A DNA stretch of 64,000 nucleotides from Spirochaetota bacterium. GTDB taxonomy: Bacteria > Spirochaetota > JAHITG01 > JAFGFC01. The position numbers and the translations under genes are program-made. The notes under the pieces were generated by a model that did not search any database, was not told the origin of the DNA, and worked only from the letters and a program-made list of their open reading frames with translations. The stretch lies in NCBI GenBank assembly GCA_016931325.1, contig JAFGFC010000051.1:12639-76638 (forward strand), given 5' to 3'. Shown piece by piece: positions 17,290 through 32,174 of the stretch (its first letter is position 1; each line of letters begins with the position of its first letter).

Positions 17290-18841
17290 AAGGGTTCAAA
17301 CCGATCATGGCAAAATATCGCCACAATGTACTGGAAATACAGAAGACAAATCTATATTTTTTCTCTTCACTGAAGGAACCGGCCAGTCCGTTGCCGATCC
17401 TGGATGACCGGGCCAGGGGCCACCAGTCATTAAAGGCGTAGACGAACTGCTTGTCTTTTATGATATGGGAAACATACGGGAGCTCGTTATTTTCCGAACG
17501 GGTTATTAAATCTATATATCGATTCATCTCATCAACATAAAACCTGTACTTTTTTAAGAATGATTCCGCTGCTCTGTTTTCTGATCTGCCCACAGCATAA
17601 TCAGCCAGCATATTGTAATCCAGAGCCATCTGTCCTGTGCCCTCCCACCAGATCATAGGTTGATCCCGCCTCTGGCTGTAGGCCTCTTTAATGGTAAAAT
17701 CAAATCCCCAGAATTTTTCCCCCTGCACCATAACCTCTACCCTGAATTTATCCTCTGCCTGTCTCACCAGTTCTATAGGATCTATGCCCATCCTGTCCAG
17801 GTCTTCAGGCCCGATCCCGCATATGGCCCATGAATTAACATCCAGGGCTTCGAGCGTATCCACAACATACTCCCATTTCCCCTTTACTTTGGTAGGGCCG
17901 TATCCACCCCGGTTAAAGGTTCCCCTCTGGTTCCAGGCTATTCTTTTGAACCAGTTTTGCGTGGCCAACTTTTCTTTCTCGATATCTTTAAAGGAAATAT
18001 CATTCTTTTTCATTATGGCCAGGACCCGGTTGTCTTTCATGTTGACCATGGCCAGACAATTCTTTAAAAAGGCATAATAGTCAATAATGTTCTCAGTGGA
18101 AAATACCTTCTGCCAGTCAGGTCCCCAACCGTATCCCATGCTGGGAGCGCCTCTTTCTCCCTGAGGCAATGTGTAATGCGTAAAATCCCTGGCCCAGTTG
18201 AACATCTTCATCACAAAATCAACAAATAAAAGCGATCGCGTTCTAAAATAATAAAACTGGGCCGCCAGCCCGACCCATATATTAGGACCGATATGGATCC
18301 TGTCCCCGTCAATACCCATAACCAGCTGGTTGTATTTTCCGGGTTTGGTATAAAAATAATGGTCAAACATGGTCACATCATAGGCATTAAAAAGCCCGAG
18401 ACAGTTGTTCTTCCTGAGTGAAAAATTATCCTCGAACAAATGCAGCATGTACTCGGCTTTTTCATAATCCTCCATATCGATCATGGCGATCAAGACCAGG
18501 GCATTGTCATACAAAAAAGCCTGACTGTCAAGGTATCCTTTTTCGGTGCGCATGAGAGGGATCTCAAGGAACCTGACATCTTCGATCCAGTTCGCGGTAC
18601 CGGTAAAACTCTGATAAAGCCCTGTTGTTTTTACCTCTATGGATTGTAAAAATCTTTTCAGCTTTTTTCTTTCATCACTGACACCGGGGAAGACCTTGTG
18701 AGACAAGATCAACAATAACAGGATGATCCAGATTACTTTTTTTGTATAAAGCGTCAGCATGATCTTTTTATTCCCTATCCGTATAATATATTTCATCAAG
18801 ATAGAATACTGATCCCTGGGAGTTATTCTGATAACTGACAA
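17261..18841 (-). CDS. Hypothetical membrane-anchored protein, possibly (alpha/alpha)6 glycosidase-like
   Basis: N-terminal transmembrane segment. Motifs AFLYDNALVLIAM, GYGWGPDW and WWEGTGQ suggest a six-hairpin glycosidase fold. Not firmly assignable. Confidence 0.35.
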   Translation of the reverse strand: MSVIRITPRDQYSILMKYIIRIGNKKIMLTLYTKKVIWIILLLLILSHKVFPGVSDERKKLKRFLQSIEVKTTGLYQSFTGTANWIEDVRFLEIPLMRTEKGYLDSQAFLYDNALVLIAMIDMEDYEKAEYMLHLFEDNFSLRKNNCLGLFNAYDVTMFDHYFYTKPGKYNQLVMGIDGDRIHIGPNIWVGLAAQFYYFRTRSLLFVDFVMKMFNWARDFTHYTLPQGERGAPSMGYGWGPDWQKVFSTENIIDYYAFLKNCLAMVNMKDNRVLAIMKKNDISFKDIEKEKLATQNWFKRIAWNQRGTFNRGGYGPTKVKGKWEYVVDTLEALDVNSWAICGIGPEDLDRMGIDPIELVRQAEDKFRVEVMVQGEKFWGFDFTIKEAYSQRRDQPMIWWEGTGQMALDYNMLADYAVGRSENRAAESFLKKYRFYVDEMNRYIDLITRSENNELPYVSHIIKDKQFVYAFNDWWPLARSSRIGNGLAGSFSEEKKYRFVFCISSTLWRYFAMIGLNPFDATVPRIE

Positions 18842-19451
18842 CCCAGCAGAAGCCGCCTATAATATAGGAAAGGTCAATACCCTTTAATGAGATCTGGTAA
18901 CGTTTCCACTTTTTACTTAAAGTGACAACCATCTCATCGGTACACCCGGAATCAGGATACGGTCCTCTGACACCACCCATGGTAAATCTGACCTCTTCTC
19001 CTCCCTGTTCCCCCCTGGCGTAGAAAACAAGTTTGGTGGCTCCCCTGAGGTCATATCCCTGATGGGGGATAAAGCCCCAGTTATTGGCCGGATTCAACCA
19101 GAAAACCCCGGCCCAGTGTTCTTCGTTCATCTCAGGATCAAAGACAGGGTCATAGACCACTTTAATGCAGCTGATCCCCTGGAAAGGTTTTTGTTTGCAG
19201 TTGCCCCAGAATCGTATGGTCAAATAATCTCCCATCCGGCCTGTCGGAAAATAGTGTACATTACCGATGGAGCCGTAGTTTTTATAGAGATAGAAGGGAA
19301 ATGTAACTTTTTTACCTTTCAGATTCAAGGGAATCTTATTCTCATAAGTTTTATTATTATTATCGCTGTAATCCGGGACATTATAATAAGTAAAAGAAAA
19401 TACCAGTCCCAGAGCCAGAATAATGTATAGTTTATTTCTTCTCGATATCAT
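18768..19451 (-). CDS. Secreted paralog-family protein A (unknown beta-sandwich or CBM-like family)
   Basis: Signal peptide present. Shares FYARGxxGxEVxF, LSKKWKRYxIxL, GGF and YLDEIYY motifs with 19461-20087, 20325-20984 and 32948-33595. Confidence 0.5.
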   Translation of the reverse strand: MISRRNKLYIILALGLVFSFTYYNVPDYSDNNNKTYENKIPLNLKGKKVTFPFYLYKNYGSIGNVHYFPTGRMGDYLTIRFWGNCKQKPFQGISCIKVVYDPVFDPEMNEEHWAGVFWLNPANNWGFIPHQGYDLRGATKLVFYARGEQGGEEVRFTMGGVRGPYPDSGCTDEMVVTLSKKWKRYQISLKGIDLSYIIGGFCWVVSYQNNSQGSVFYLDEIYYTDRE

Positions 19452-19460
19452 CTTATCCCT

Positions 19461-20087
19461 TTATCTCTCGATCTTTATCTCATCAATATAAATGGTGACC
19501 AATTCCTTGCGATACTGTTTATGGTCCATCCATCTCATGGCCAGAGAAAATCCAAGACTGATATGGGTTAGATCCTCTTTATCCAGGAGGATGGTATATT
19601 TTTTCCATTGTCGTGTTAATTTGACCGGCCCATAGAGGATCTCTGTAGAATCAGAGAACGTGCCGTAATTCCCGCCGAATTTAAAAATGACCACTTCATC
19701 TCCCTTCTTTCCCCTGGCATAAAAGGTCAGCTGTCGGGCCCCTGTAAGGTCCAGCCCGCCATCAATATTGCCCCAGTTATAGCTGGGGAAGGTCCAGTTG
19801 ATGCTGATCCAGTTAAATACCGATTGCCGCCTTGTGTTATATTCGAATTTCATGCAGTAATTCCCGGTTTTGGGTTTTTCCGTGCAGAACTGGTTATACT
19901 GAATGCAGAGAACATCACCGCCCCAGCAGGTGGGAGCATAAAATGAACGCTCCGTCCAGATATCACCATCCAGATAAATAACGACAGGATATTTTTGCGG
20001 TTTGTAGGCATAACCATAAAGACTGTTATTTATCAGGCCGACCATGAGAAAAAATATTATAAATACAGGACAGATGCTTCTTCTCAT
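19461..20087 (-). CDS. Secreted paralog-family protein B
   Basis: Signal peptide present. Motifs FYARGKKGDEVVIF, LTRQWKKYTILL and IYIDEI shared with paralogs A, C and D. Confidence 0.5.
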   Translation of the reverse strand: MRRSICPVFIIFFLMVGLINNSLYGYAYKPQKYPVVIYLDGDIWTERSFYAPTCWGGDVLCIQYNQFCTEKPKTGNYCMKFEYNTRRQSVFNWISINWTFPSYNWGNIDGGLDLTGARQLTFYARGKKGDEVVIFKFGGNYGTFSDSTEILYGPVKLTRQWKKYTILLDKEDLTHISLGFSLAMRWMDHKQYRKELVTIYIDEIKIER

Positions 20088-20324
20088 TTCCTTTTTCCCC
20101 AGTTCATTCTAATGTAACGGAAATAATCCAGTTCGTCAACATGAAATCATCAGCCATCCCCCGGAAATGAAGAGGGCCGGTTTGCTTTAGCAAATCCGAC
20201 CCTTTTGTTTTCTTGAGGATGCTTTAGAAGTTTTGGTTGATTTGGTTGATCCGGCAAGAATTATACTCAGTATATATATATTCCTTGCTCATCACACCTT
20301 TTTTAAAAGAACGATCCAAAACTT

Positions 20325-20984
20325 TTAATTTAATTCATTATAAGCGGTTCTCTGTGCAGAGAGACTGGTTGATTCTTCATTATTGGAATAATAGACATCA
20401 TCCACATAGAATGTGCAACCATCAGGATTATCCTTGGCATAAAGGACAAATCCAAAACCACCGGCTATATCCTTCAATTCCAAACAACTCAGGTCTATTT
20501 CATATTTTTTCCATTCTTTGGAAAGAACGATCTTTTTACTGGTCTTTGAATCCTTTGGGTTTTGCTGCCTTGTTCTGTTCATGCTGAATTCAACGACCTC
20601 ATTGCCATGCTTTCCCCTGGCATAGAAATATACTTTTTTAGCGGGAGTCAGATCATATCCGCCACGTATGGAGATCCAGTAATTATTGGGATTGGACTGA
20701 AAATACAGACCGGCCCATCCATCACCTTCACCGGCTGCGGTATAGGTGACTCTCAGAGCAGAAGAGCCGGAGCGGGTATTCTTATCCCATCTGTTGTCCA
20801 TTCGGATGTCCCGGATATCTCCCATCCAGCCGCTCGGAATGCCTCTATCCAATTTGCTTTCAGCATTGGAATAGATATAAAATGGGTAACGCAACACCTT
20901 GTAACTCATAAGAAAATCATCATCTTCAGCTAAAAGGATTGATCCCATTGACAAAACAATTAAAATAAGGAGTAGTCTTTTCAT
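20325..20984 (-). CDS. Secreted paralog-family protein C
   Basis: Start at MKRLLLIL with an AAGGAGG ribosome-binding site. Motifs PSGWMGD, YFYARGKHGNEVVEF, LSKEWKKYEIDL and FYVDDVYY. Closest to paralog D. Confidence 0.55.
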   Translation of the reverse strand: MKRLLLILIVLSMGSILLAEDDDFLMSYKVLRYPFYIYSNAESKLDRGIPSGWMGDIRDIRMDNRWDKNTRSGSSALRVTYTAAGEGDGWAGLYFQSNPNNYWISIRGGYDLTPAKKVYFYARGKHGNEVVEFSMNRTRQQNPKDSKTSKKIVLSKEWKKYEIDLSCLELKDIAGGFGFVLYAKDNPDGCTFYVDDVYYSNNEESTSLSAQRTAYNELN

Positions 20985-21043
20985 GATATTTACCTCCTTT
21001 CCCCTTTTCATTAGTAAGGACAATGGTCAGGGAAAAAAGTGCA

Positions 21044-21206
21044 AGAATTTTTTTTAATATTTGAGGATTCAGGCCGTGTGAAAATCAGCCCTCTGGAATT
21101 TCCAAGAGAAATTCCGAGGATAAAGTCCTGGAAATTTCTCTAGAAATTTCACAGGAAGATCTTCCAGGGAGATTCAAGGGGTCCAGGGTTCCTGGACCCC
21201 TTGAAT
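21044..21206. repeat. Structured intergenic repeat, family 1, copy 2; contains a perfect 16-bp-arm hairpin at 21172-21206
   Basis: Collinear sequence blocks with 447-578. attcaaggggtccagg-gtt-cctggaccccttgaat is a perfect inverted repeat. gaaatttct-ct-agaaatttc is also palindromic. Confidence 0.5.
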
Positions 21207-21339
21207 TCTTATTCGAAATAAAGATATCCGTGTTAATCCGCCATGGGGGCCTTTAGGCTCTGGTTACTCTTAAAAAACTTGACTTGGGGCCTTCGGGGCA
21301 ATATTTTAGAGTTTCAAGCCAAGGTATAGGGAGACAATC

Positions 21340-21765
21340 ATGGGTCATCATCATGAAAAGGAAACGGTGATACGGTTTGGTATCTCTATTGAAGAACATT
21401 TATTGGAATCATTCGACCGGTATTTGAAAAAAAAGCATTATAAGAACCGGTCAGAAGCCATAAGGGATCTGATCCGCGACAGGCTTTCTGACGCAAAGAA
21501 AGAATCAGGGGAAGAGAAGACGGTGGCCATTGTCTCGTACCTCTATAACCATCATATTCCCCAGCTAACGGAAAAGATCGTCCATATGCACCATCATTCT
21601 CACATCAAGATCTACTCCACACAGCATATTCATCTTTCCAGGGAATTGTGCCTTGAGATCACGATCGTGGAAGGGGAAATGGCCAGGGTGAAAGATTTCA
21701 GCAACAGGATACAGTCGCTAAAAGGGGTTCAGCATTTGACCGTCAATCACTACTTCTTGACCTAA
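21340..21765 (+). CDS. nikR: Nickel-responsive transcriptional regulator NikR
   Basis: N-terminal RHH (RFGISIEEHLLESFDRYLKKKHYKNRSEAIRDLIRDRL) and C-terminal His-rich metal-binding domain (HMHHHSH...), typical NikR architecture and length (141 aa). Confidence 0.85.
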   Translation: MGHHHEKETVIRFGISIEEHLLESFDRYLKKKHYKNRSEAIRDLIRDRLSDAKKESGEEKTVAIVSYLYNHHIPQLTEKIVHMHHHSHIKIYSTQHIHLSRELCLEITIVEGEMARVKDFSNRIQSLKGVQHLTVNHYFLT

Positions 21766-22286
21766 AATAGATTAGCTTCCTTGAGGATAAAATTGATCAT
21801 CAGATCAAAGTTTAATTTGTCTTTTTTAATCGGCTCGGGGAACGAGGGAAAGCAGGTGATCTTCTCCAGGGCCTTTTTAACTTCCCTATCCAAAATTTCA
21901 AATCCGGAGCTCTTTTTAATCCTGAAATTCAACAGCCTCCCGTCACAGGCCACTGTGAAATTGATAAGGGCTTTGCCCTCCAATTTTCTTTTCCTGGCCA
22001 TAAAAGGGTACTCGAGATTTTTGTATATCTCAGCTCTCAAAACCTCTCTGAAAGCGATAATGGAATTTTTCTCTGCGGATTGTTGCCCCACATCACTTTC
22101 ATCCTCCAGCCTGGTCCTGTCAGACACCTGATTGACAGGTGTAAGAATGACTTCCACGTACTCCGCTTCCTGGGCAGGGTCATGTTTTATTGAACCGGCT
22201 TTGAACAGACCGGGAATTAAAAGGAACACCGCGTGGACCAGCACAGAACAGATCAGACTAATATAAAATATCCGTTTTGTTTTCAT
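21762..22286 (-). CDS. tonB: TonB family energy transducer (C-terminal TonB domain)
   Basis: N-terminal transmembrane segment. C-terminal YPFMARKRKLEGKALINFTVACDGRLLNFRIKKSSGFEILDREVKKAL matches the TonB_C fold motif. Confidence 0.7.
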   Translation of the reverse strand: MKTKRIFYISLICSVLVHAVFLLIPGLFKAGSIKHDPAQEAEYVEVILTPVNQVSDRTRLEDESDVGQQSAEKNSIIAFREVLRAEIYKNLEYPFMARKRKLEGKALINFTVACDGRLLNFRIKKSSGFEILDREVKKALEKITCFPSFPEPIKKDKLNFDLMINFILKEANLF

Positions 22287-22289
22287 GGG

Positions 22290-22892
22290 TTATATTTTTC
22301 TCGCTTTAACCAGAAAATAACCGTTATTAACATACTTTTCAAGCAAAAATCCGGTTTTTTTCAATATGATGTCAAACCAGGATTTATCCGGAATATGATG
22401 CATTCTCATTTCAAAACCAAATTCTCTGTGCATTTTATTGATATGCTCTCTGTTCTGACTGTGTGATATCACAAGAAGACCTTTCTTCTTTAACAGATGA
22501 TATATATTCTTTAAAGTCCGGGTCTTGTTTTCAAAATGAGGAAAACAGTTAAAGCAGATCACCATATCAATTTTCTGTTCCAACTCCACATTTTCTATAT
22601 TGGCAAGAAGACATCGGGAATTAGAAATATGAACCATTTTGTTCTCGGCAAATTTTAGCATCTTTCCAGAGATATCGACCATCCATAAAAACCCGTCCAG
22701 TCCGATATGTTCAAGAATATAAGGAGAAAAATCCCCCTTGCCGCACCCCGCCTCAACAACTTTCATCCCTTTATCAAGCCCGAATTTTTTAACCAGGCCA
22801 CGTATCTTCTCCACTTCTTTTTTTTTATTGACCCAGTCATTCTGGTAGGTTTCAGCCACTGAATCAAAAATCTCTTTAATCGACCTTTGCAT
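22290..22892 (-). CDS. Class I SAM-dependent methyltransferase
   Basis: Motif I VVEAGCGKGDFSPYIL and methyltransferase-fold spacing. Embedded in the metal-uptake operon. Confidence 0.7.
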   Translation of the reverse strand: MQRSIKEIFDSVAETYQNDWVNKKKEVEKIRGLVKKFGLDKGMKVVEAGCGKGDFSPYILEHIGLDGFLWMVDISGKMLKFAENKMVHISNSRCLLANIENVELEQKIDMVICFNCFPHFENKTRTLKNIYHLLKKKGLLVISHSQNREHINKMHREFGFEMRMHHIPDKSWFDIILKKTGFLLEKYVNNGYFLVKARKI

Positions 22893-23682
22893 AAACTCTC
22901 CTTTTTGGTGAAATTAAATAAACGATCAATAAGATAAAAGAAAGGAAAATAGCCACCGTGGCGCTGACCGGCCAGTTGAAAGTAAAAGAAAATATCACGC
23001 CCCCGGCTCCCCCCAGCGAAGCAAAAAAGGAAGATAGAAAAATAAATTTTTTGATGTCATAGGTTATCTGATAGGCGATAGATGGCGGAATAATGATAAG
23101 ACTGAAAAGCAAAAGCCCGCCGATAATATTCAAATTCACCGTTATCACCGCGCCAACAAAAAAAAGTAAAACGTAAAAAAATAACCGGTCATTGATTCCC
23201 AGGGAAGCGGCGATCTCTCTGTTGAACAAGATCGCCACCAGCTCCTTGAAAAAGGCGGCTATAAACACGCCGAGGGCAAAAAGCAGAAAGATCAGGAAAA
23301 TGATATCCAGAGAATCCACCAGAAGGATGTTACCCCATAACAGATCTAGAATAACTCCTTTCTGTGGTAAAAGGCCCATTCCCAAAAATGCTATTCCCAG
23401 AACAAAAGAAAAAAGAATACTGATGGCGATATTGGGGCTGATCCTGCTTTTTTCTGACAGGGGAGGTATAAAAAGTGAGCTCAAAAGAGAAAATCCCAGG
23501 GCCATGACCCTGGATGGGAGCCCCAGGATCATACCCCATATCCCGCCCGCCATGGCCGAGTGTGACAAGGTTACACCTATAAACGGAATATTTAAAAGAA
23601 AAATAAAAACCCCTATGATCCCGCACTGTATTCCGGTTAATATAATAATGAATAAACTTTTATAAAGGATCGAATCAGTCAT
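22876..23682 (-). CDS. Metal ABC transporter permease (ABC-3 / ZnuB-TroCD-like)
   Basis: About 8 transmembrane helices, 268 aa. Pattern typical of ABC-3 permeases. Overlaps neighbours in operon fashion. Confidence 0.75.
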   Translation of the reverse strand: MTDSILYKSLFIIILTGIQCGIIGVFIFLLNIPFIGVTLSHSAMAGGIWGMILGLPSRVMALGFSLLSSLFIPPLSEKSRISPNIAISILFSFVLGIAFLGMGLLPQKGVILDLLWGNILLVDSLDIIFLIFLLFALGVFIAAFFKELVAILFNREIAASLGINDRLFFYVLLFFVGAVITVNLNIIGGLLLFSLIIIPPSIAYQITYDIKKFIFLSSFFASLGGAGGVIFSFTFNWPVSATVAIFLSFILLIVYLISPKRRVYAKVD

Positions 23683-24403
23683 AAATATAACTCAGGAAAT
23701 CTTTTTTTTCCCAGAGCTCCTTTTTTTGCCCCTGAAAAATGACATGGCCGTTCTTTAAAACAACGATCCTGTTGCTGAATTCCGAAATATGGGTTATCAG
23801 GTGGGTCACGAAAAGGACCGTGAGTCTGTGATCGATGTATATCTTTTCCACCATTTTCAAAAATTTTTTATAAGCCTGAATATCAAGATTGACGTTTGGT
23901 TCATCCAGAAAAAGTATCTCAGGTTTCTGGATCAGGACAAAAGCCAGCATCACCTTCTGCCGTTCTCCTCCGGATATCAGGCCAAAAGGTTTATTCAAAA
24001 GATGATGGATCTTGAACTCTTTTTCTACGGAGCGGATAATATCTCTGTCGTTTTTATCAATTCTTTTAAGTATCCCCTTGCCCGAACGACCCATGACAAG
24101 CACGTCCTTGACTAGAATGGGAAAATACGGATCCATATCCAGCCTCTGAGGCATATAGGCTATATTTTTTCTGATCGAACGTATCTTTGACTTTGTATTT
24201 TCCTGATTAACAAAAATCTCGCCCTGCCCGGCTTTATAAAAACCCAGAATTGTTTTCAAAAGGCTTGTCTTTCCTGACCCGTTCGGTCCCAGGATCGTAA
24301 TAAATTCTCCCTTTTTAACATCCAGATCAATATGATTCAATATGGCATGACCATGACCGGAAAGGCAAACATTTTTAACTCTTATCGCATATCCCTGAGC
24401 CAT
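23675..24403 (-). CDS. Metal ABC transporter ATP-binding protein (ZnuC/TroB-like)
   Basis: Walker A GPNGSGKTSLLK, signature LISGGERQ, Walker B ILFLDEP. Confidence 0.85.
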   Translation of the reverse strand: MAQGYAIRVKNVCLSGHGHAILNHIDLDVKKGEFITILGPNGSGKTSLLKTILGFYKAGQGEIFVNQENTKSKIRSIRKNIAYMPQRLDMDPYFPILVKDVLVMGRSGKGILKRIDKNDRDIIRSVEKEFKIHHLLNKPFGLISGGERQKVMLAFVLIQKPEILFLDEPNVNLDIQAYKKFLKMVEKIYIDHRLTVLFVTHLITHISEFSNRIVVLKNGHVIFQGQKKELWEKKDFLSYIYD

Positions 24404-24409
24404 ATTCGG

Positions 24410-25228
24410 TTATTCCTCCAGACCCTTCTTTAACTGTTCCAAATTGCCTGACCAGAGGTGAAGGAACATGGGATCCCTGGAAAAATCAGGAAAGTTGGCA
24501 AATATAATGATTTTTTTGTTTAGTCGTTTTTCAAAAACCAGGGCTGTGGGATGATGGTCCCCTGTTCTATTGCTGATGATATAATCTATCCCTTCTCTTT
24601 TTGAATCCCTTCTGATCTTTTCTATCTGCTTTAATCCTGAACTTTCCAGACCGGCAAAAGTGGCTATCACCTCCAGGCCCAGATACTCGCAGAATCCTTT
24701 TTGAAAGGCGCTGGCTATCACTTTGATACGTTTCTTCTTTATCCTCTCCAGGAAAGAACGTTCTTTTTCAACAGTCTGCTGAATGGTTTTAATCGTTTGT
24801 TCCCGGTTCGTCTTTATTTTCAGGCTATCATCCGGAAAATAACGGCTCAGGATCGTTTCCATCTCTTTTAACGCGCTGAAATAGTTCTCTGGCACTGTAA
24901 GATCAGGACTGGTAATGATATGAATCTTTATCAACGGATTGATCTTTTGTATTTTTGCCACCAAATATTTCTGAAAAGGATGGATCATTAAAAAAGCGGC
25001 CTTTCGGATGGAGAGGGCATCAGAGGGCTTTAGATCAAAATGTCCCGGACACTGGCCCGGCGGCACAAGATTCATGATAGCCAGATCCGGATCCAGATCC
25101 CTGACCAGTGATATGATCATGGTTGTACCGGCTAGAACGATCCTGCCTTGCGGCCGTTCTTTAGAACAGGATAAAATAAAGGCCAGCAAAAGGAACAGAG
25201 TTATATAATTTTTCATTGTTGTTCGCAC
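24410..25228 (-). CDS. Metal-binding periplasmic or lipoprotein substrate-binding protein (TroA/ZnuA cluster A-I)
   Basis: Lipobox-like LSCS. HFDLKPSD...A motif like the HxyxPSP/D motif of ZnuA/TroA substrate-binding proteins. Confidence 0.65.
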   Translation of the reverse strand: MRTTMKNYITLFLLLAFILSCSKERPQGRIVLAGTTMIISLVRDLDPDLAIMNLVPPGQCPGHFDLKPSDALSIRKAAFLMIHPFQKYLVAKIQKINPLIKIHIITSPDLTVPENYFSALKEMETILSRYFPDDSLKIKTNREQTIKTIQQTVEKERSFLERIKKKRIKVIASAFQKGFCEYLGLEVIATFAGLESSGLKQIEKIRRDSKREGIDYIISNRTGDHHPTALVFEKRLNKKIIIFANFPDFSRDPMFLHLWSGNLEQLKKGLEE

Positions 25229-25244
25229 AGGATGACCATCCGTT

Positions 25245-27113
25245 CTAAATATTTAACAGCACGCCTGTTTTCAAGATCAACCCCGGCGCCGGATAACCTG
25301 ATCTTACTAGATATTTTTCATTAAGGATATTTTCCGCATCCAGATAAAAATGCCATTCTGTATTGCTCATGGTTAGGTCATAGTTGACAGAAGAGTTGAG
25401 AACCATATAATCATCCAGTTTTTCTTTTTTTTCATCTGAATCATACCGGTCCCGGGCAAATTCTGCCTCCACTTTCATCGACAGAGGGGAAGTGATTTGA
25501 ATGATCGTATAGGCTTTGCCATTGAACAAGGCCAGGTGGGCTGTTTTTTTGCCTGGATCAAGATATCCCAAAAGCAAGCCGCTTTTTATCGCCGGGATCG
25601 GTTTGACCCAAGCCTCCAGTTCCAGGCCATTTATGATAATCTTGCCTGAATTTTCAAACGAGGGTGGAAAGGGAGGGGGGCCTACCTGCTGTATCAAATT
25701 TTTTCCTGTTATTTGATAATACGATAATTTGTAGAAAAATCGATTATGAATTTCCTTCAGGCCTGTTTCATACTGCCAGTAATCTTCCGGTTCCGTGACA
25801 TTATATTCAGGAGGGTTTATGATAGCCATGCATTCTCTGCCAAATTCAGGTGTCTTATATCCTCTCTGCGCATTGCCATAAAGATACTGATCAGCCCGGA
25901 TATTGACCTGGATCCCACCTGAAGGAATGATGATCTCATCCCATACGTTATTATAAGCGTACCGGATGCCTCCGGATAAAATTACAATATCCAGCTTTTG
26001 ATCCATCAAGGTGTACGCCGCGTAATCATTTTGAATTTTTTTCAATTCCTGATGACCGCCCGCCGGGTGATCATTATATACACCGCCAAACTGCTGCCAG
26101 TCAAATCCAATCTTTGTCTGATTCCCCTTGAATAATTGCACGGTTTCCATTATCCTGAGGCCATAGTCCTCGAAAATATTATTGCTGTCATTAAAAAATT
26201 TATTCAGCCCGGTATCAGCATACAGGATCACTTTGCCTCTTATATGGTCATACTCATGTTCAACCCTGAAATCAAAATCCCTCTGAATGGTTTTACCGGC
26301 AGCGTCATATCGACCCCAGTCAGCATTCGTGGGACCCGGGTTATAAAAGAGGATATCCGCGTAATCGACATTGGCCCGGACATACCAGTTGGCGTTGATC
26401 TCGTATCCTGCTCCCATATGATAATTCTGTTGATAGGAATCAGAATTTTCTCTGCCTCCCTCTGTGGACTTGTAGCCCACAGACAGGTTATAGTCAAAAG
26501 GTCCTGTCTTGAACCGATTGTTTATAAAATAATCCTGAGAGTTGTAACTGCCGTAAGCCAGGCCAATGGCTGTTCTTATACCGTCTTTTCTCATCCGCTT
26601 GGTTCTGATATCAATGACACCACCCACAGCCTGGTTCCCGTGTTCGACTCCTGAGGGTCCTTTTATCACCTGCACGCTTTCAACAGCATCCAAAGACAGC
26701 GTATCAAGCAGAGGATGCCGCCATATCCCCATGCTCTGCGGCCGGTCATCGACAAAGGTCAGCACCCCTGTATTGGGTATCTCCCCCAGGCCGCGGATCT
26801 TGAATACAGACGGATTCTTGGAACCGACCTGGAAACTGACCGGACCTGTCTTGTTAAAATAAATACCGGAAACATCTTTGGTAAGATCAATCACATTATG
26901 CCGGCTGTTATTTTCAATAGTCTGGGAACGAAAGGTCACAACGGATTGACTCGAACGGTTCAAATCAGAAACAGACTCATCTTTCACGACAGGAACAGTC
27001 TCTTTTTTAACCTTGATCTCGCCCAGGTCAATGGTTTCGGATCCTTTCTGAGCCTGGCCGAAGCCAATGAATCCGGCAAGGAATATAAATATTATTGATA
27101 GATGTTTCATCAA
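25245..27113 (-). CDS. TonB-dependent outer-membrane receptor
   Basis: Signal peptide present. Plug-domain motifs (VFKIRGLGEIPNTGVLTFVDDRPQ, GPSGVEHGNQAVGGVIDIRTK) and a long beta-barrel region. Confidence 0.8.
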   Translation of the reverse strand: MMKHLSIIFIFLAGFIGFGQAQKGSETIDLGEIKVKKETVPVVKDESVSDLNRSSQSVVTFRSQTIENNSRHNVIDLTKDVSGIYFNKTGPVSFQVGSKNPSVFKIRGLGEIPNTGVLTFVDDRPQSMGIWRHPLLDTLSLDAVESVQVIKGPSGVEHGNQAVGGVIDIRTKRMRKDGIRTAIGLAYGSYNSQDYFINNRFKTGPFDYNLSVGYKSTEGGRENSDSYQQNYHMGAGYEINANWYVRANVDYADILFYNPGPTNADWGRYDAAGKTIQRDFDFRVEHEYDHIRGKVILYADTGLNKFFNDSNNIFEDYGLRIMETVQLFKGNQTKIGFDWQQFGGVYNDHPAGGHQELKKIQNDYAAYTLMDQKLDIVILSGGIRYAYNNVWDEIIIPSGGIQVNIRADQYLYGNAQRGYKTPEFGRECMAIINPPEYNVTEPEDYWQYETGLKEIHNRFFYKLSYYQITGKNLIQQVGPPPFPPSFENSGKIIINGLELEAWVKPIPAIKSGLLLGYLDPGKKTAHLALFNGKAYTIIQITSPLSMKVEAEFARDRYDSDEKKEKLDDYMVLNSSVNYDLTMSNTEWHFYLDAENILNEKYLVRSGYPAPGLILKTGVLLNI

Positions 27114-27256
27114 TCATAGTCTCCCTTATTTCGTGTTACTTTTTTATAAAAAATATTACTTTATCAGGAAAAGTCAAGTTAAAAGTAATTTAAACAGTTA
27201 TAATATGGATCAATGAAATAAATTGAAGAATGGCAGACTGATTTTATCTTGAAAAC

Positions 27257-28963
27257 TCAGAGGATTAGATTTAAAATACCGCCTACGATCAGCGTGGACA
27301 GGATCATAACCGCTGTGGCTTTTGCCATATCCAGAATACCCAGCTCTTTAACAAGCACGGTAAAGGTAGCGACACAGGGAAAGTACATGGTAAGGATAAC
27401 ACTGGCGATCACCAGCTGCTTGAGGCTCATTCCCAGAGGGGCCAGCATTCCCACAGCCACATCCTTTCTTAAAAAACCGATGACCAGGGCTCCCACTGAC
27501 TCTTTTGGCAATCCGAGCACTCCTTTGATCACCGGCTCACTCAATTTTCCTAAAAAAGAGATCACACCAAGAACATAAAGCATATTGATAATAAATACTC
27601 CTACAATAACATAAGGAACAGCCTCGGATAAAAAACCTTTGATCCGCATCCAGAGCTTTTTTAAAAGTCCTTTCCAGTAAGGGATACGGTAGGGGGGGAT
27701 CTCCAGAAAGATCTCAGGACTTTCACCTTTTATCAACTTGTTCATGATAACGCCAAGGACAAATCCGACTATAAAAAGAGTGAAAAAGACCACGCCTATC
27801 CCTTTAACGCCATATTGCCCCACAAGACCCATTACCATGGCTATCTGGGCGGTACAGGGCACACAGATGGCCATGACCGTGGCCGCGATAAACCGTTCCT
27901 TCTTGGTTTCCAGAATACGCGTGGCCAGGGCGCCTGGGACATTACAGCCCAGGCCCAGGATCATGGGGATGATGGAAAGCCCGTGTAATCCCAGACGATG
28001 CATAAAATTATCAACCAGCACAGCCAGCCGCGGCAGATATCCGGAATCTTCCAGGAAGGATAGTATAAGATAAAAAGCAAAAATATAGGGTAATACCATG
28101 GCAAAGGGGACAAAAAGACCTGTTGTTAAAAGCCCGAGAGATTCAACAAAGTCAATGCGACCGTTGATCAGCCTTCCTATCAGGATGTCATGGATCATAC
28201 CCGGTTTTAAAAGAGACGATAATTTCAGGATCAGGGGCCCATAAATTTTTTCAAAAAACGGTTCAAATAAATAGGTGATGAGCGATTCCCCGATAAATCG
28301 TATAACAGCAAAGGAAAGTATAAGAACAAGAATAGAAAGCGGGAGACCGGTCATAGGTTTAATGGTAAGATCCAGGACCCTTTCCCAAACGGTATGGTGC
28401 CGATGGCTTATCCTCTGGACATTCTGAATAATATGACCCACTTTGCTCCATCTCTGGTTTTCTCTGAAGGTATAGGATCTGGCTTTGGCCTGGTCTATTC
28501 TTGAAAAAAGGTTTTTTATCCCTTCGCCGGTCAGAGCGCAGGTCGTAACGACCGGCACTCCGATTATTTTCTCAAGTCGATCAACATTAATTGAAATACC
28601 AATATGTTTCACTTCATCCCAAAAGTTTAAAACAACAATAACGGGTTTACCTGATTTTAAAAGCTGCAAAGTTAAATTTAAATTCCTTTCCAGGTTCGTG
28701 GCATCCAGCACATTAATGACCAGGTCCGATGAATGAAAGATCTTAACAGCGACTTCCTCAGCCCGGTTTGTCGCCTTCAGGGAATATGTTCCGGGAGCAT
28801 CGATCAGCTCTGACTTTTCATTCTCTTTTCTGATATACCCCTTCGTGTACTCTACTGTTGTTCCTGTGTAATTGGAAGCGATAACATTCACACCGGTGAG
28901 CCGGGAAAAAATTACGCTCTTCCCTACATTAGGATTTCCCATTAAGACAATTCGTTTCATCAT
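27257..28963 (-). CDS. feoB: Ferrous iron transporter FeoB (G-protein domain plus membrane domain)
   Basis: GNPNVGKSVIFSRLTG (G1 motif), NYTGTTVE, followed by a polytopic membrane domain. Confidence 0.9.
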   Translation of the reverse strand: MMKRIVLMGNPNVGKSVIFSRLTGVNVIASNYTGTTVEYTKGYIRKENEKSELIDAPGTYSLKATNRAEEVAVKIFHSSDLVINVLDATNLERNLNLTLQLLKSGKPVIVVLNFWDEVKHIGISINVDRLEKIIGVPVVTTCALTGEGIKNLFSRIDQAKARSYTFRENQRWSKVGHIIQNVQRISHRHHTVWERVLDLTIKPMTGLPLSILVLILSFAVIRFIGESLITYLFEPFFEKIYGPLILKLSSLLKPGMIHDILIGRLINGRIDFVESLGLLTTGLFVPFAMVLPYIFAFYLILSFLEDSGYLPRLAVLVDNFMHRLGLHGLSIIPMILGLGCNVPGALATRILETKKERFIAATVMAICVPCTAQIAMVMGLVGQYGVKGIGVVFFTLFIVGFVLGVIMNKLIKGESPEIFLEIPPYRIPYWKGLLKKLWMRIKGFLSEAVPYVIVGVFIINMLYVLGVISFLGKLSEPVIKGVLGLPKESVGALVIGFLRKDVAVGMLAPLGMSLKQLVIASVILTMYFPCVATFTVLVKELGILDMAKATAVMILSTLIVGGILNLIL

Positions 28964-29199
28964 TTTCTACCTGTTTCTTTCACGAAAATCCTTCTGGCCA
29001 TCCCAAAACCCAGGGCCACCTGACAGGCACCGATCTTGATACAAACCGGGCCTTTCATGAATTGAGAACTTTTCTTTTCTATTACAACCCCCTTTCTTAT
29101 TCCCAGGGCTTCCAATTTATTTATGAAACCATGACCGCCATCCAACCCGGTTATCAGCCCTTTTTCACCTTCCTTAAGATCAATTAGAGTTTTCATCAT
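28960..29199 (-). CDS. feoA: FeoA family protein
   Basis: SH3-like FeoA pattern (LKEGEKGLITGLDGG...LGIRKGVVIEKK...GPVCIKIGACQVAL). Start at MMKTLIDL; the ORF extends further into the upstream gene. Confidence 0.7.
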   Translation of the reverse strand: MMKTLIDLKEGEKGLITGLDGGHGFINKLEALGIRKGVVIEKKSSQFMKGPVCIKIGACQVALGFGMARRIFVKETGRK

Positions 29200-29200
29200 T

Positions 29201-29635
29201 TCACTCCTTTTTCTTCTGCAGATATCGTTTGAACTCGTTCTTGACTGGGGTTTTCTTTCTCTCAAAAGATTCCATAAAAGAGACAAATTCGACCAGCCTT
29301 TCAAAGGTCTTTTCATGGATGTAGTGCTCGATCCTGCAGGCATCTTCCCTGGCTATCTTTTCATCAACACGCAGGATCTCTTTTAAGAATTTTATCAATA
29401 TTTTATGCTTTTTATATACCTGCCTGGCTTTTCTGACACCCGATGGCGTGAGTTCAATATACCCGTAGTGTTCGTGATTCACGTATCCTTTTTCTGACAG
29501 CACTTTTAACGCCCCTATAACAGAGGAGGTTTTCACGTTCATGGTAGAGGTCAGATCCTTGACCCTTACCACTTTGCGCTTGGTCTGTTCCATAAAGATG
29601 GTTTCAATATAATCTTCCAGGCTGGGTGTCAGCAT
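29201..29635 (-). CDS. DtxR/MntR-family metal-dependent transcriptional repressor
   Basis: LEDYIETIF...VRVKDLTSTMNVKTSSVIGALKVLSEKGYV...ACRIEHYI matches the DtxR helix-turn-helix and metal-site pattern. 144 aa, no SH3 domain. Confidence 0.8.
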   Translation of the reverse strand: MLTPSLEDYIETIFMEQTKRKVVRVKDLTSTMNVKTSSVIGALKVLSEKGYVNHEHYGYIELTPSGVRKARQVYKKHKILIKFLKEILRVDEKIAREDACRIEHYIHEKTFERLVEFVSFMESFERKKTPVKNEFKRYLQKKKE

Positions 29636-29655
29636 AACTCTCCTTTTCTTGGTTT

Positions 29656-29682
29656 GCCTATAAATTATAGGCTTACCTATAA
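29656..29682. promoter_or_regulatory. Candidate DtxR/IdeR-type operator: perfect palindrome gcctataa-a-ttataggc overlapping an IdeR-like core TAGGCTTACCTAT
   Basis: Read in the sequence about 20 bp upstream of the dtxR-family gene start. The IdeR consensus core is TAGGCTAACCTAA. Confidence 0.45.
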
Positions 29683-29769
29683 TATAATATAACTCGTTTT
29701 TTTATTTTGTCAACTATTTTTTATCAGGCTCTTGACTTTTAAAATTATTTTTAATACCTTGTAATACTT

Positions 29770-30219
29770 ATGAATATAGCGATCAACATCCTGATTGCCA
29801 TGCTGGCTTTTTGCTTTATGGAATTTGTAGCCTGGTTCACTCATAAATTTGTCATGCACGGGTTCCTATGGATTTTGCATGAAGACCATCACAGGCCTCA
29901 TAAAGGCCGTTTTGAAAAAAACGACCTGTTTGCTTTTTATTTCGCGGGCATCGCTATTTTGTTTTTTGCGCTGGGGGCTTTTCACGGTCTGATCATCTAT
30001 ACATCGATCGCCATAGGTGTCACATTGTACGGGATCGGTTATTTCCTGTTCCATGACGTGATGTTCCACAGAAGGATAAAAGGGTTCAGGATCAAAGCCT
30101 CAACACCTTATCTGAAACGGATCATACACGCCCACTCCGTGCATCATCAAAGCACAGACAAAAATAAAAGCACAACATTCGGCTTTCTCTATGCCAGTAA
30201 AAAATATGATATCAAATGA
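29770..30219 (+). CDS. crtZ: Beta-carotene hydroxylase (CrtZ-like, fatty-acid hydroxylase superfamily)
   Basis: His boxes HEDHH and HAHSVHH. MHGFLWILHEDHHRPHKGRFEKNDLFA closely matches the CrtZ N-terminal region. Confidence 0.65.
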   Translation: MNIAINILIAMLAFCFMEFVAWFTHKFVMHGFLWILHEDHHRPHKGRFEKNDLFAFYFAGIAILFFALGAFHGLIIYTSIAIGVTLYGIGYFLFHDVMFHRRIKGFRIKASTPYLKRIIHAHSVHHQSTDKNKSTTFGFLYASKKYDIK

Positions 30220-30674
30220 TATTTTCCGTTAAAACAATAACCATCATCTTTCTTGTCATCTGCGCGACTTTTGTCTTTCTTTATTCCTCTGATACAAAAG
30301 AAGGCCATGGGAATGTTATCCTGAGAATAGGGCCGTTGAAAAATAAAAAAGGCACCCTCAACCTTAACATTTTCACTTCAGAAGAAGGATTTCCTGATGA
30401 CCATAAAAAAGCCTACAGGATCATCAGCCAGAACATCACCCATATCACCCAGACCATCATGATGACCAACTGCCCTCACGGTTACTACGCCGTATCCGTG
30501 CTGCATGATGAGAACGATAATAAAAAAATGGACACCGGCCTGTTTGGTATACCCAAAGAAGGGTACGGATTCTCTAAAAATGCAAAGGGATTTTTTGGTC
30601 CGCCTGATTTTGAAGACGCTAAATGTCTGCTCAAGGAAAAGCAGATGACCGTTCATATAAAATTAAACTATTGA
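30216..30674 (+). CDS. DUF2141-like secreted protein
   Basis: N-terminal signal/transmembrane segment. Motif HDENDNKKMDTGLFGIPKEGYGFSKNAKGFFGPPDFEDA matches the DUF2141 signature. Confidence 0.45.
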   Translation: MIFSVKTITIIFLVICATFVFLYSSDTKEGHGNVILRIGPLKNKKGTLNLNIFTSEEGFPDDHKKAYRIISQNITHITQTIMMTNCPHGYYAVSVLHDENDNKKMDTGLFGIPKEGYGFSKNAKGFFGPPDFEDAKCLLKEKQMTVHIKLNY

Positions 30675-30690
30675 ATAAAAAGAGGACCGT

Positions 30691-32166: not shown

Positions 32167-32174
32167 CCGCAGCC

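What the first reader, a model, noticed from the sequence alone, without database searches (positions are those of the whole stretch)
21340..27113. NikR adjacent to a TonB-dependent receptor + TroA-type ABC + methyltransferase + TonB operon: candidate NikR-controlled, TonB-powered nickel or metal import system
nikR (+) converges on a six-gene minus-strand operon: TonB-dependent receptor (25245-27113), TroA/ZnuA-like substrate-binding protein, ABC ATPase, ABC-3 permease, SAM methyltransferase and TonB. All have overlapping or short junctions. NikR-regulated, TonB-dependent nickel uptake is established in Helicobacter (FrpB4/FecA3). The combination with a dedicated TroA-type transporter and an in-operon methyltransferase is unusual and could indicate a metallophore-related pathway. 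A possible operator (attacttt-N19-aaagtaat) lies upstream of the receptor gene at about 27160-27210.
Basis: partly seen in the sequence, partly recalled or inferred. Interest (0 to 1): 0.55.

Follow-up and report, generated by a model that had tools for sequence, protein, structure and literature searches.

The report
NikR-controlled nickel importer with methyltransferase partner
The gene cluster is real and most likely a nickel-repressed, TonB-powered nickel uptake system; its inner-membrane pump belongs to a widespread clade now labelled "zinc transporter", and it nearly always comes with a methyltransferase whose role is unknown.

Summary
nikR (+) converges on a tightly packed minus-strand operon: TonB-dependent receptor, ZnuA-fold binding protein, ABC ATPase, ABC-3 permease, class I SAM methyltransferase, TonB.

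NikR keeps all four nickel ligands. The binding protein has the ZnuA/PsaA fold but lacks the canonical Zn/Mn ligands. It carries an invariant Cys-Pro-Gly-His-Phe-Asp loop instead.

The module is not a one-off. Binding protein, ATPase and permease recur in 47 non-redundant loci across about 15 phyla. The methyltransferase is adjacent in 34 of 43 assessable loci, the receptor in 22, and nikR in 17.

A published NikR box (GTGTTAC-N13/14-GTAACAC) lies in the upstream zone in 20 loci, with 8 perfect pairs against 0.02 expected. In the window the box is GTGTTAC-N13-ATATTAC at 27133-27159, across the -10/start of the receptor promoter.

The best reading is NikR-repressed high-affinity Ni(II) import by a new variant of the Mn/Zn/Fe ABC family. 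Substrate specificity and the methyltransferase's function are inferred, not shown. I found no support for a metallophore pathway.

The parts
21340..21765 (+). nikR: nickel-responsive ribbon-helix-helix repressor, 141 aa, convergent with the operon
   Evidence: Pfam NikR_C 7.7e-21 and RHH_1. NCBIfam NF003381 134.5 bits, cut-off 105. The gap-free alignment to E. coli NikR puts H85, H96, H98 and C104 on H76, H87, H89 and C95. These four are invariant in 17 of 17 cassette-linked NikRs. NCBI names it NikR, MBN1897766.1.
21279..21307 (+). promoter-like site of nikR (TTGACT-17-TATTTT); no NikR box here
   Evidence: Consensus scan, 9 of 12. No box with up to 3 mismatches upstream of nikR.
21762..22286 (-). 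tonB: last gene of the operon, 174 aa
   Evidence: Pfam TonB_C 9.7e-13. 3-nt gap after the methyltransferase gene. No exbB or exbD in the window.
22290..22892 (-). class I SAM-dependent methyltransferase, 200 aa; start overlaps the permease stop by 17 nt
   Evidence: Pfam Methyltransf_31/25/11. Every specific NCBIfam model is below its cut-off. AF2 pLDDT 95.8. Family-invariant residues: G49, G51, G53, D73, F117-P118-H119, H144, N152, H155, P168. Adjacent to the cassette in 34 of 43 assessable loci.
22876..23682 (-). ABC-3 (Mn/Zn/Fe-chelate family) permease, 268 aa
   Evidence: Pfam ABC-3 5.4e-37. 32-56% identical in the related loci.
23675..24403 (-). ABC transporter ATPase, 242 aa
   Evidence: Pfam ABC_tran 6.1e-30.
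24410..25228 (-). substrate-binding lipoprotein with cluster A-I (ZnuA/PsaA) fold and signature C60-P61-G62-H63-F64-D65; the likely start is the ATG at 25216 (268 aa as in NCBI)
   Evidence: Pfam ZnuA 46.7 bits over the C-terminal half only, and no NCBIfam hit. AF2 pLDDT 87.8. Foldseek matches YfeA, ZnuA, MntC and PsaA at TM about 0.75 with 12-15% identity. Invariant C60, P61, G62, F64, N220, P247; H63 in 45 of 46; H83, Q176 and N245 in at least 40 of 46. Canonical ligands are not kept. NCBI calls it a zinc ABC transporter SBP, MBN1897771.1.
25245..27113 (-). TonB-dependent outer-membrane receptor, about 621 aa; the likely start is the ATG at 27110
   Evidence: Pfam Plug 3.3e-15 and barrel 3.8e-22. 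All specific NCBIfam receptor models are far below cut-off. Homologous receptor directly upstream of the binding-protein gene in 22 of 41 assessable loci.
27133..27159 (.). candidate NikR operator GTGTTAC-ttttttataaaaa-ATATTAC (gene orientation GTAATAT-N13-GTAACAC)
   Evidence: The only pair in the 64-kb window with up to 2 mismatches. Matches the published consensus GTGTTAC-[N13/14]-GTAACAC (PMC545781). The closest relatives carry GTGTTAC-N14-GTGTTAC at the same promoter position. My estimate of the chance of such a hit in this 146-bp spacer is about 0.003-0.004, from the rates.
27150..27177 (-). promoter-like site of the operon (TTGACT-16-TATTTT); its -10 overlaps the left half-site of the NikR box
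   Evidence: Consensus scan, 9 of 12. Sequence read.
   Evidence: Exact match. Chance expectation is about 1 per window at up to 3 mismatches. Not present in L001 or L008.

Best explanation
This is a nickel-repressed, high-affinity nickel uptake system.

When nickel is plentiful, Ni-NikR binds the two GTGTTAC-type half-sites at 27133-27159. These cover the -10 and start region of the promoter in front of the receptor gene, so the six-gene operon is shut off.

When nickel is scarce, the operon is transcribed. The outer-membrane receptor, energised by the operon's own TonB (ExbB and ExbD must be encoded elsewhere), brings nickel into the periplasm. A lipoprotein binding protein with the ZnuA/PsaA fold captures it. 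Its site is different from the usual one and is built around an invariant Cys-Pro-Gly-His loop. It hands the metal to an ABC-3 permease and ATPase for import.

The methyltransferase is translationally coupled to the permease and works on the cytoplasmic side. My best guess is that it is a small-molecule methyltransferase whose conserved His119/His144/Asn152/His155 cluster binds the incoming metal or a metal-bound ligand.

Shown: gene order, domain identities, NikR ligand conservation, loss of the canonical Zn/Mn site, conservation of the module, and enrichment of NikR boxes. Inferred: that nickel is the substrate, that NikR binds the site, and everything about what the methyltransferase does.
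For: - Gene calls, domains and tight junctions.
- NikR has all four Ni ligands, and they are invariant in 17 cassette-linked NikRs.
- The binding protein has the cluster A-I fold. However, PsaA ligand H67 aligns to Gly62, flanked by Cys60 and His63; E205 aligns to a non-conserved position; D280 aligns to invariant Asn245; the H139 region has no counterpart.
- Cys-Pro is invariant in the top 149 family representatives.
- Synteny with nikR holds in different gene orders. L001: nikR-tonB-receptor-SBP-ATPase-permease-MTase. L008 (Goldiibacteriota): nikR-exbB-exbD-tonB-receptor-SBP-ATPase-permease-MTase.
- Across 47 non-redundant loci: MTase in 34 of 43 assessable, receptor in 22 of 41, nikR in 17, NikR box upstream in 20, nikR or box in 25.
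- The NikR box consensus is published (PMC545781). Perfect pairs: 8 observed against 0.02 expected. One-mismatch pairs: 3 against 0.8. By my reading, 11 of 13 non-redundant two-mismatch pairs fall in the upstream zones, which I estimate at about 3% of the sequence.
- No cobalamin riboswitch or other Rfam element sits in front of any cassette examined.
Against: - No experiment exists on any member, so substrate identity rests on regulator linkage and site chemistry.
- The window's box has two mismatches, and its half-sites are in direct rather than inverted orientation.
- The raw count of two-mismatch pairs is at chance level (16 against 14). Only their position is non-random.
- Eight CPGHFD cassettes, seven of them in Dehalococcoidia genomes, are next to a Fur-family regulator instead of NikR. 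That could mean zinc or another metal in those lineages.
- Five loci with nikR adjacent show no box at up to 2 mismatches.
- I could not read the model coordinates, so the proposed ligand set (Cys60, His63, perhaps His83 and Asn245) has not been checked in 3D.
- No nickel enzyme is encoded in the window.
- There is no terminator between feoB and the receptor gene, so read-through from the upstream DtxR-feoAB promoter is possible.
Confidence: 0.7

Rival explanations
1. It is a zinc (or Mn/Fe) importer, as annotated. The adjacent NikR homologue is either unrelated or senses zinc, as was suggested for Methanothermobacter MTH603-606.
For: NCBI names the binding protein a zinc ABC transporter SBP. 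The Pfam family is ZnuA and the permease is ABC-3. Kaster 2011 noted a ZnuABC cluster next to a NikR homologue and proposed a zinc-responsive NikR (PMC3087415). CPGHFD cassettes in Dehalococcoidia and in L062 sit next to Fur-family regulators. A sister subtype with HPGDFD is also Fur-linked.
Against: The canonical His/His/His-or-Glu/Asp ligand set is absent. An invariant Cys is unusual for cluster A-I Zn/Mn sites (my knowledge of the family). All four Ni ligands of NikR are invariant in the linked regulators. NikR boxes of the type published for nickel transporter operons sit on the cassette promoters. Fur-family regulators include the nickel sensor Nur (my knowledge), so Fur linkage does not prove zinc.
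Confidence: 0.12
2. It imports a nickel chelate (metallophore), and the methyltransferase makes, matures or dismantles the chelator.
For: TonB-dependent receptors usually carry chelates (general knowledge). The methyltransferase is conserved and translationally coupled to the permease. Its structural neighbours are small-molecule N-, S- and O-methyltransferases.
Against: No metallophore synthesis genes (nicotianamine-synthase-like, opine dehydrogenase, NRPS) and no exporter appear in any of the neighbourhoods clustered. ABC-3 permeases and cluster A-I binding proteins handle bare ions, whereas chelates use FecCD-type systems (family knowledge). The cassette with the methyltransferase occurs without a receptor in Clostridia, Moorellaceae and Dehalococcoidia, and without a receptor or the methyltransferase in archaea. 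The same methyltransferase family also accompanies Fur-regulated cassettes and an Opp/NikABCDE-like transporter.
Confidence: 0.15
3. It is a cobalt or dual nickel/cobalt importer. This would parallel the Nik/CbiMNQO and NiCoT families, where close relatives differ in metal.
For: One CPGHFD cassette with the methyltransferase (L060) lies directly upstream of a corrinoid salvage cluster (BtuF-like, FecCD, CbiA, CobD). The hosts include heavy corrinoid users such as Dehalococcoidia, acetogens and methanogens.
Against: The cobalamin riboswitch in L060 lies after the methyltransferase gene and controls the next operon, not the cassette. No cobalamin riboswitch precedes any of the 26 related loci searched or occurs anywhere in the window. 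The window's regulator is a NikR with an intact Ni site.
Confidence: 0.1

Closest known systems
Helicobacter NikR regulon for nickel uptake: FrpB4/FecA3 receptors, ExbB-ExbD-TonB, and the NiuBDE ABC importer (PMC5140060, PMC3856676)
   Same: Nickel-responsive NikR represses a TonB-dependent outer-membrane receptor, the TonB machinery and a periplasmic-binding-protein ABC importer.
   Different: NiuB is a CeuE-like cluster A-II protein that binds a Ni-histidine complex and works with FecCD-type permeases. That is my knowledge of the literature; I did not test it here. In this locus the binding protein has the cluster A-I fold with a Cys-Pro-Gly-His site and the permease is ABC-3. All parts are in one operon, and a methyltransferase is included. 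The operator is of the GTGTTAC type, not the Helicobacter type.
Predicted NikR-controlled receptor plus NikMNQO loci, for example Caldithrix abyssi Cabys_1316-1319 (PMC5317091), and the delta-proteobacterial NikR regulons (PMC545781)
   Same: nikR, a TonB-dependent receptor and an inner-membrane nickel transporter are clustered behind a GTGTTAC-type NikR box.
   Different: There the inner-membrane transporter is an ECF-type NikMNQO. Here it is a binding-protein-dependent ABC-3 system with a methyltransferase.
ZnuABC, TroABCD, PsaABC and YfeABCD (Mn/Zn/Fe ABC family, cluster A-I binding proteins), with ZnuD-type receptors under Zur
   Same: Same fold for the binding protein (TM about 0.75), same ABC-3 permease family, and the same receptor-plus-ABC logic.
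   Different: Only 12-15% identity. The canonical His/His/His-or-Glu/Asp site is replaced. The regulator is NikR, not Zur, MntR or TroR. A methyltransferase is conserved in the operon.
Methanothermobacter MTH603-606 (MTBMA_c09830-09860): a 'ZnuABC' cluster next to a NikR homologue (PMC3087415)
   Same: A Methanobacterium locus (L031) does carry the CPGHFD motif.
   Different: The authors read it as zinc transport with a possibly zinc-responsive NikR. I could not verify that MTH604 itself has the CPGHFD motif. The archaeal loci seen here lack the receptor and the methyltransferase.
E. coli NikABCDE-NikR
   Same: An adjacent nikR represses an ABC nickel importer through a two-half-site operator with 13-16 bp spacing.
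   Different: NikA is a cluster C (Opp-like) binding protein with different permease families, no receptor and no methyltransferase.

Membership tests
NikR (nickel-responsive ribbon-helix-helix regulators) | N-terminal ribbon-helix-helix domain plus C-terminal NikR_C (ACT-like) tetramerisation domain | tested here: met
   Pfam RHH_1 1.1e-05 and NikR_C 7.7e-21. NCBIfam NF003381 134.5 bits against a cut-off of 105. PDB NikR chains at 1e-24 to 1e-21.
NikR (nickel-responsive ribbon-helix-helix regulators) | High-affinity square-planar Ni site: three His and one Cys (E. coli H76', H87, H89, C95) | tested here: met
   The gap-free alignment to 1q5v gives H85, H96, H98 and C104. These are invariant in 17 of 17 cassette-linked NikRs.
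NikR (nickel-responsive ribbon-helix-helix regulators) | Nickel-dependent binding to a two-half-site operator on a target promoter | not testable with these tools
   There is a candidate site at 27133-27159 matching the published consensus. Binding itself needs EMSA or footprinting.
TonB-dependent transporters | N-terminal plug domain inside a C-terminal beta-barrel | tested here: met
   Pfam Plug 3.3e-15 and TonB_dep_Rec_b-barrel 3.8e-22. No specific subfamily model reaches its cut-off.
Cluster A-I metal binding proteins (ZnuA/TroA/PsaA) | Two alpha/beta lobes joined by one long rigid helix | tested here: met
   AF2 model with pLDDT 87.8 and helices 113-130 and 132-155 between the lobes. Foldseek matches YfeA, ZnuA, MntC and PsaA at E 6e-13 and TM 0.75-0.77.
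Cluster A-I metal binding proteins (ZnuA/TroA/PsaA) | Four-residue metal site: His, His, His or Glu, Asp (PsaA H67, H139, E205, D280) | tested here: not met
   In the profile alignment to PsaA, H67 aligns to Gly62, E205 to a non-conserved residue, D280 to Asn245, and the H139 region is not aligned. The conserved residues are instead C60, H63, H83, Q176, N220 and N245.
Mn/Zn/Fe-chelate ABC importers (ABC-3 permease family) | ABC-3 permease with a cognate ATPase in one operon with the binding protein | tested here: met
   Pfam ABC-3 5.4e-37 and ABC_tran 6.1e-30. All equivalog models (ZnuB, AztB, SloB) are below their cut-offs.
Known nickel ABC/ECF importers (NikABCDE, NikMNQO, NiuBDE/NikZ) | Opp-like SBP_bac_5 binding protein, or ECF S-component NikM, or CeuE-like binding protein with FecCD permease | tested here: not met
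   None of these domains is found in the operon's proteins.
Class I SAM-dependent methyltransferases | Rossmann-like fold with the GxGxG SAM motif and an acidic residue after strand 2 | tested here: met
Named methyltransferase subfamilies (UbiE/MenG, BioC, ArsM, DVU_1556, CpaM) | Score above the curated NCBIfam cut-off | tested here: not met
   The best is BioC at 54.3 bits against 185. UbiE scores 45.9 against 216, DVU_1556 40.1 against 155 and ArsM 30.8 against 263.

The most novel reading that the evidence does not exclude
The methyltransferase may be a working part of metal import: an unrecognised fourth component of a large clade of ABC-3 metal importers in anaerobes. It could use SAM to methylate a thiol, imidazole or carboxylate ligand that arrives with the metal or receives it, so releasing or trapping the metal. 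Alternatively it could act as a His-rich metal acceptor docked on the transporter. If so, the Cys-Pro-Gly-His binding proteins would define a new nickel-selective site within the ZnuA fold. That would fill part of the gap of nickel-using organisms with no known nickel transporter.
Probability: 0.25. Interest if true: 0.8.

Novelty: new variant of a known kind. Interest (0 to 1): 0.62.

Why it matters
Many anaerobes depend on nickel enzymes such as hydrogenases and CO dehydrogenase/acetyl-CoA synthase. A 2009 census found 62 bacteria with nickel enzymes but no recognisable nickel transporter (PMC2667541).

This family has about 500 clusters at 50% identity (E up to 1e-30). It is spread over Spirochaetota, Planctomycetota including anammox bacteria, Chloroflexota, Clostridia, Acidobacteriota, several candidate phyla, and archaea. 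Where a source names these proteins, the name is "zinc" transporter.

If it carries nickel, three things follow. Genome-based metal budgets for these groups are wrong. The ZnuA fold gains a new Cys/His nickel site. NikR regulons gain a new standard member.

The near-obligate methyltransferase is the most intriguing part. I found no description in the searched literature of a metal ABC importer that needs a SAM-dependent enzyme (my inference). The question is directly testable in cultivated carriers of the methyltransferase family, such as Thermanaeromonas toyohensis.

Tried and rejected
- **Regulatory RNA.** I looked for a cobalamin or other riboswitch in front of the receptor gene. Rfam finds nothing in the window and nothing before the cassette in 26 related loci. 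The only cobalamin riboswitch (L060) controls the next operon.
It is exact but not above chance, and it is absent from L001 and L008. Its centre-to-centre spacing of about 30 bp, measured on the GTAAT cores, does not fit known NikR sites. I replaced it with the GTGTTAC-type box.
- **Literature.** I searched for a NikR-linked ZnuA-like nickel transporter. I found only the Methanothermobacter remark and a general note that FmdE genes sit next to metal transporters.
- **3D check of the metal site.** Model coordinates are not exposed to the sandbox. The AFDB library is not installed.
- **Other searches of the window.** I found no second NikR box and no autoregulatory box upstream of nikR, no exbBD, and no nickel enzymes.
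- **Box statistics.** A simple count of two-mismatch boxes turned out to be at chance level. For that class I rely only on zero- and one-mismatch counts and on position.

Full report
**1. The observation**

| Gene | Coordinates | Strand |
|---|---|---|
| nikR | 21340-21765 | + |
| tonB | 21762-22286 | - |
| class I SAM methyltransferase | 22290-22892 | - |
| ABC-3 permease | 22876-23682 | - |
| ABC ATPase | 23675-24403 | - |
| ZnuA-like binding protein | 24410-25228 | - |
| TonB-dependent receptor | 25245-27113 | - |

The junctions between the operon genes are 16, 6, -8, -17 and 3 nt. nikR and tonB overlap tail to tail by 4 nt. The source is a Spirochaetota MAG. NCBI names the proteins NikR, TonB, class I SAM-dependent methyltransferase and "zinc ABC transporter substrate-binding protein".

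That class of pattern is expected about once per window by chance.

**2. The individual parts**

*NikR.* It aligns without gaps to E. coli NikR. H85, H96, H98 and C104 fall on the four high-affinity nickel ligands H76, H87, H89 and C95 (the E. coli numbering is from my knowledge of the protein). It passes the NCBIfam NikR equivalog cut-off.

*Binding protein.* Its Pfam ZnuA match is weak and partial, it hits no NCBIfam model, and phmmer finds no significant PDB homologue. An AlphaFold model (pLDDT 87.8) nevertheless has the cluster A-I fold. Foldseek matches YfeA, ZnuA, MntC and PsaA at TM about 0.75 with 12-15% identity.

A family profile aligned to PsaA shows that the canonical site is gone:
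- Ligand H67 falls on Gly62, flanked by Cys60 and His63.
- E205 falls on a non-conserved position.
- D280 falls on the invariant Asn245 of an N-F-P motif.
- The H139 region has no counterpart.

Across 46 family members, P56, C60, P61, G62, F64, P113, N220 and P247 are invariant. H63 is present in 45 of 46. H83, Q176 and N245 are present in at least 40 of 46.

*Methyltransferase.* It is a confident class I fold (pLDDT 95.8). It has intact SAM motifs (G49, G51, G53, D73) and family-specific invariant residues F117-P118-H119, H144, N152, H155 and P168. No named subfamily model reaches its cut-off. Structural neighbours are generic small-molecule methyltransferases.

**3. Relatives elsewhere**

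A word-indexed search found only 8 binding-protein homologues. A full HMMER scan found 504 representatives at E up to 1e-30 and 1360 at 1e-10. In the best 149, Cys-Pro is invariant and CPGHFD is present in 104. The rest are close variants such as CPGHYD and CPAHFD.

Scanning one genome per species for the motif gave 42 loci. They come from Brocadiaceae, Victivallales, BRC1, Armatimonadota, Clostridia, Moorellaceae, Thermacetogenium, Phycisphaerae and other Planctomycetota, Latescibacterota, WOR-3, Aminicenantes, Acidobacteriota, Dehalococcoidia, Methanobacterium and Hadarchaeota.

Together with the metagenome loci, 47 non-redundant loci were compared by tblastn:

| Feature | Loci |
|---|---|
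| Binding protein, ATPase and permease together | all loci whose contig extends far enough |
| Methyltransferase adjacent | 34 of 43 assessable |
| Homologous receptor directly upstream | 22 of 41 assessable |
| nikR nearby | 17 |
| Fur-family regulator | 7, all Dehalococcoidia |

Gene order differs between lineages while the gene content is kept:
- L001: nikR-tonB-receptor-SBP-ATPase-permease-MTase.
- L008, Goldiibacteriota: nikR-exbB-exbD-tonB-receptor-SBP-ATPase-permease-MTase.
- Phycisphaerae: the methyltransferase is divergent and nikR follows the permease.

This pattern is what a functional module looks like. Unsupervised clustering of all neighbouring ORFs found no further genuine conserved protein family beyond these and the Fur-type regulator. 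The remaining multi-locus clusters were opposite-strand ORFs overlapping the cassette genes or small lineage-specific groups.

Starting instead from the methyltransferase, a profile search found 2404 proteins at E up to 1e-10. In 7 of 9 context look-ups the gene lies directly after an ABC-3 permease. The other two are a gene followed by an FmdE-domain gene at a contig end, and a methyltransferase-TrmO_N fusion beside an Opp/NikABCDE-like transporter and two FmdE genes. FmdE genes have been noted to sit beside metal-ion transporters (PMC2954224).

**4. Regulation**

Rodionov and colleagues derived the NikR signal GTGTTAC-[N13/14]-GTAACAC for nickel transporter operons in delta-proteobacteria. 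They also saw the reversed orientation (PMC545781).

I scanned all 795 kb held (55 loci plus the window) for two such half-sites, in any orientation, at N13 or N14:

| Total mismatches | Observed | Expected in shuffles |
|---|---|---|
| 0 | 8 | 0.02 |
| 1 | 3 | 0.8 |
| 2 | 16 | 14 |

The two-mismatch count alone is not significant. By my reading, 11 of 13 non-redundant two-mismatch pairs lie in the zone just upstream of the first cassette gene, which I estimate at about 3% of the sequence. Only L032:16652 and L055:18119 lie clearly elsewhere.

In total, 20 of 47 loci have a box in the upstream zone and 25 have nikR or a box.

The window has exactly one pair with up to 2 mismatches: GTGTTAC-ttttttataaaaa-ATATTAC at 27133-27159. 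From the rates, I estimate the chance of such a hit in the 146-bp feoB-receptor spacer at about 0.003-0.004. It overlaps the -10 of the promoter-like TTGACT-16-TATTTT (27177-27150) and the expected transcription start.

The two closest relatives, L001 and L008, carry GTGTTAC-N14-GTGTTAC at the same place relative to TTGACT-17-TACGAT. The direct-repeat arrangement is therefore a shared feature of this subclade. The outer GT...AC of the half-site is itself palindromic, which may explain why orientation is tolerated; that is my inference.

nikR has its own promoter-like site (21279-21307) and no box.

**5. Mechanism and how sure each step is**

Shown by sequence and comparison:
- There is a six-gene operon with a convergent nikR.
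- NikR has an intact nickel site.
- The binding protein has a ZnuA fold with a non-canonical Cys/His signature.
- The module is conserved with NikR genes and NikR boxes across phyla.

Inferred:
- Ni-NikR represses the operon by occluding the -10 and start.
- Nickel is the substrate.
- The receptor with TonB carries nickel across the outer membrane. ExbBD must be supplied from elsewhere.
- Cys60 and His63, perhaps with His83 and Asn245, form the site.

The methyltransferase's role is open. Its translational coupling to the permease and its His119/His144/Asn152/His155 cluster make a cytoplasmic metal-handling role my best guess, at about 0.3.

**6. What argues for caution**

Eight CPGHFD cassettes, seven of them in Dehalococcoidia genomes, are Fur-linked. 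A sister subtype, in which Cys becomes His and His becomes Asp (HPGDFD), is also Fur-linked and also has the methyltransferase. That swap at exactly positions 60 and 63 supports their role as specificity-determining ligands.

It also shows two other things. The methyltransferase is not nickel-specific, and CPGHFD is not exclusively NikR-linked.

No cobalamin riboswitch precedes any cassette, which argues against a cobalt assignment.

No terminator separates feoB from the receptor gene, so the upstream DtxR-feoAB promoter (29713-29686) may add iron- or manganese-dependent read-through.

**7. Comparison with known systems and novelty**

The logic of NikR, receptor, TonB and ABC importer is that of the Helicobacter nickel regulon and of predicted receptor-plus-NikMNQO loci. 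The inner-membrane machine belongs by fold and permease family to the ZnuABC/PsaABC group, but it fails that group's defining metal-site test.

The only earlier mention I found of a NikR gene beside a ZnuABC-like cluster read it as zinc transport (PMC3087415). I found no description of this clade as a nickel transporter, and none of its methyltransferase partner.

I therefore rate it a new variant of a known kind. It is interesting mainly for three reasons: the probable mis-annotation of a widespread family, the new site chemistry, and the unexplained methyltransferase.

Noticed in passing
window 27257-29713: A DtxR/MntR-like regulator (29201-29635), feoA (Pfam domain in residues 52-122 of ORF 28960-29343, so the true start is probably near 29200) and feoB (27257-28963) form an operon on the same strand, directly upstream of the receptor gene. 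It has a strong promoter-like site (TTGACA-16-TATATT, 29713-29686). No terminator-like hairpin separates feoB from the receptor gene, so read-through into the nickel operon is possible. L024 also has DtxR and feoB next to its cassette.
   Followed up: partly
window 21060-21260: The nikR upstream region is unusually structured. It has a perfect 13-bp stem hairpin (caaggggtccagg-gtt-cctggaccccttg, 21175-21203) followed by a T-rich tail, yet there is no plus-strand gene before it. Several GGAAATTTC / GAAATTTC inverted repeats lie at about 21100-21155. This could be a small RNA, a protein-binding array or a bidirectional terminator.
   Followed up: no
window 17261-21023: Three tandem paralogous secreted proteins (18768-19451, 19461-20087, 20325-21023; shared motifs such as YFYARG and FYxDxIYY) and a 526-aa neighbour (17261-18841) have no Pfam match at all.
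   Followed up: no
L059 5384-6232 and L061 3504-4349: This is a sister subtype of the binding protein. The signature reads (S/Q)HPGDFD instead of QCPGHFD, with Cys60 replaced by His and His63 by Asp. It has a Fur-family regulator upstream and the same methyltransferase downstream. The swap at exactly these two positions looks like a metal-specificity switch.
   Followed up: partly
L057 2215-10465: A methyltransferase of this family is fused to a TrmO_N (PF01980) domain. It is followed by an AhpD/CMD-like protein, an unknown protein, an Opp/NikABCDE-type ABC transporter and two FmdE-domain proteins. In L056 (Thermanaeromonas toyohensis) the methyltransferase is followed by an FmdE protein. This suggests a wider methyltransferase/FmdE/metal-transporter association in anaerobes.
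   Followed up: partly
L060 7500-7686 and L026 1980-2116: In L060 a cobalamin riboswitch lies just after the cassette's methyltransferase gene and heads a BtuF-like/FecCD/CbiA/CobD cluster. In L026 a Moco riboswitch lies 8 kb upstream of the cassette. Neither controls the cassette.
   Followed up: yes
window 29770-32855: Divergent from the DtxR-like gene is a cluster of a small membrane protein with His-rich motifs (29770-30219), a DUF2141 protein, an amine-oxidase/phytoene-desaturase-like flavoprotein (30691-32166) and a lycopene cyclase domain protein (32175-32855). This is probably a carotenoid pathway.
   Followed up: no
window 33855-38900: There is a very large ORF (1681 aa, minus strand) that I did not examine.
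   Followed up: no
L005 3187-3213 and L055 18119-18145: The same two-mismatch NikR-like pair (TTGTTCC-N13-GTGTTAC) occurs in two unrelated loci. In L005 it overlaps a pilin-like gene just upstream of the cassette. In L055 it is 8 kb away from it. This may be coincidence or a conserved element of another kind.
   Followed up: no
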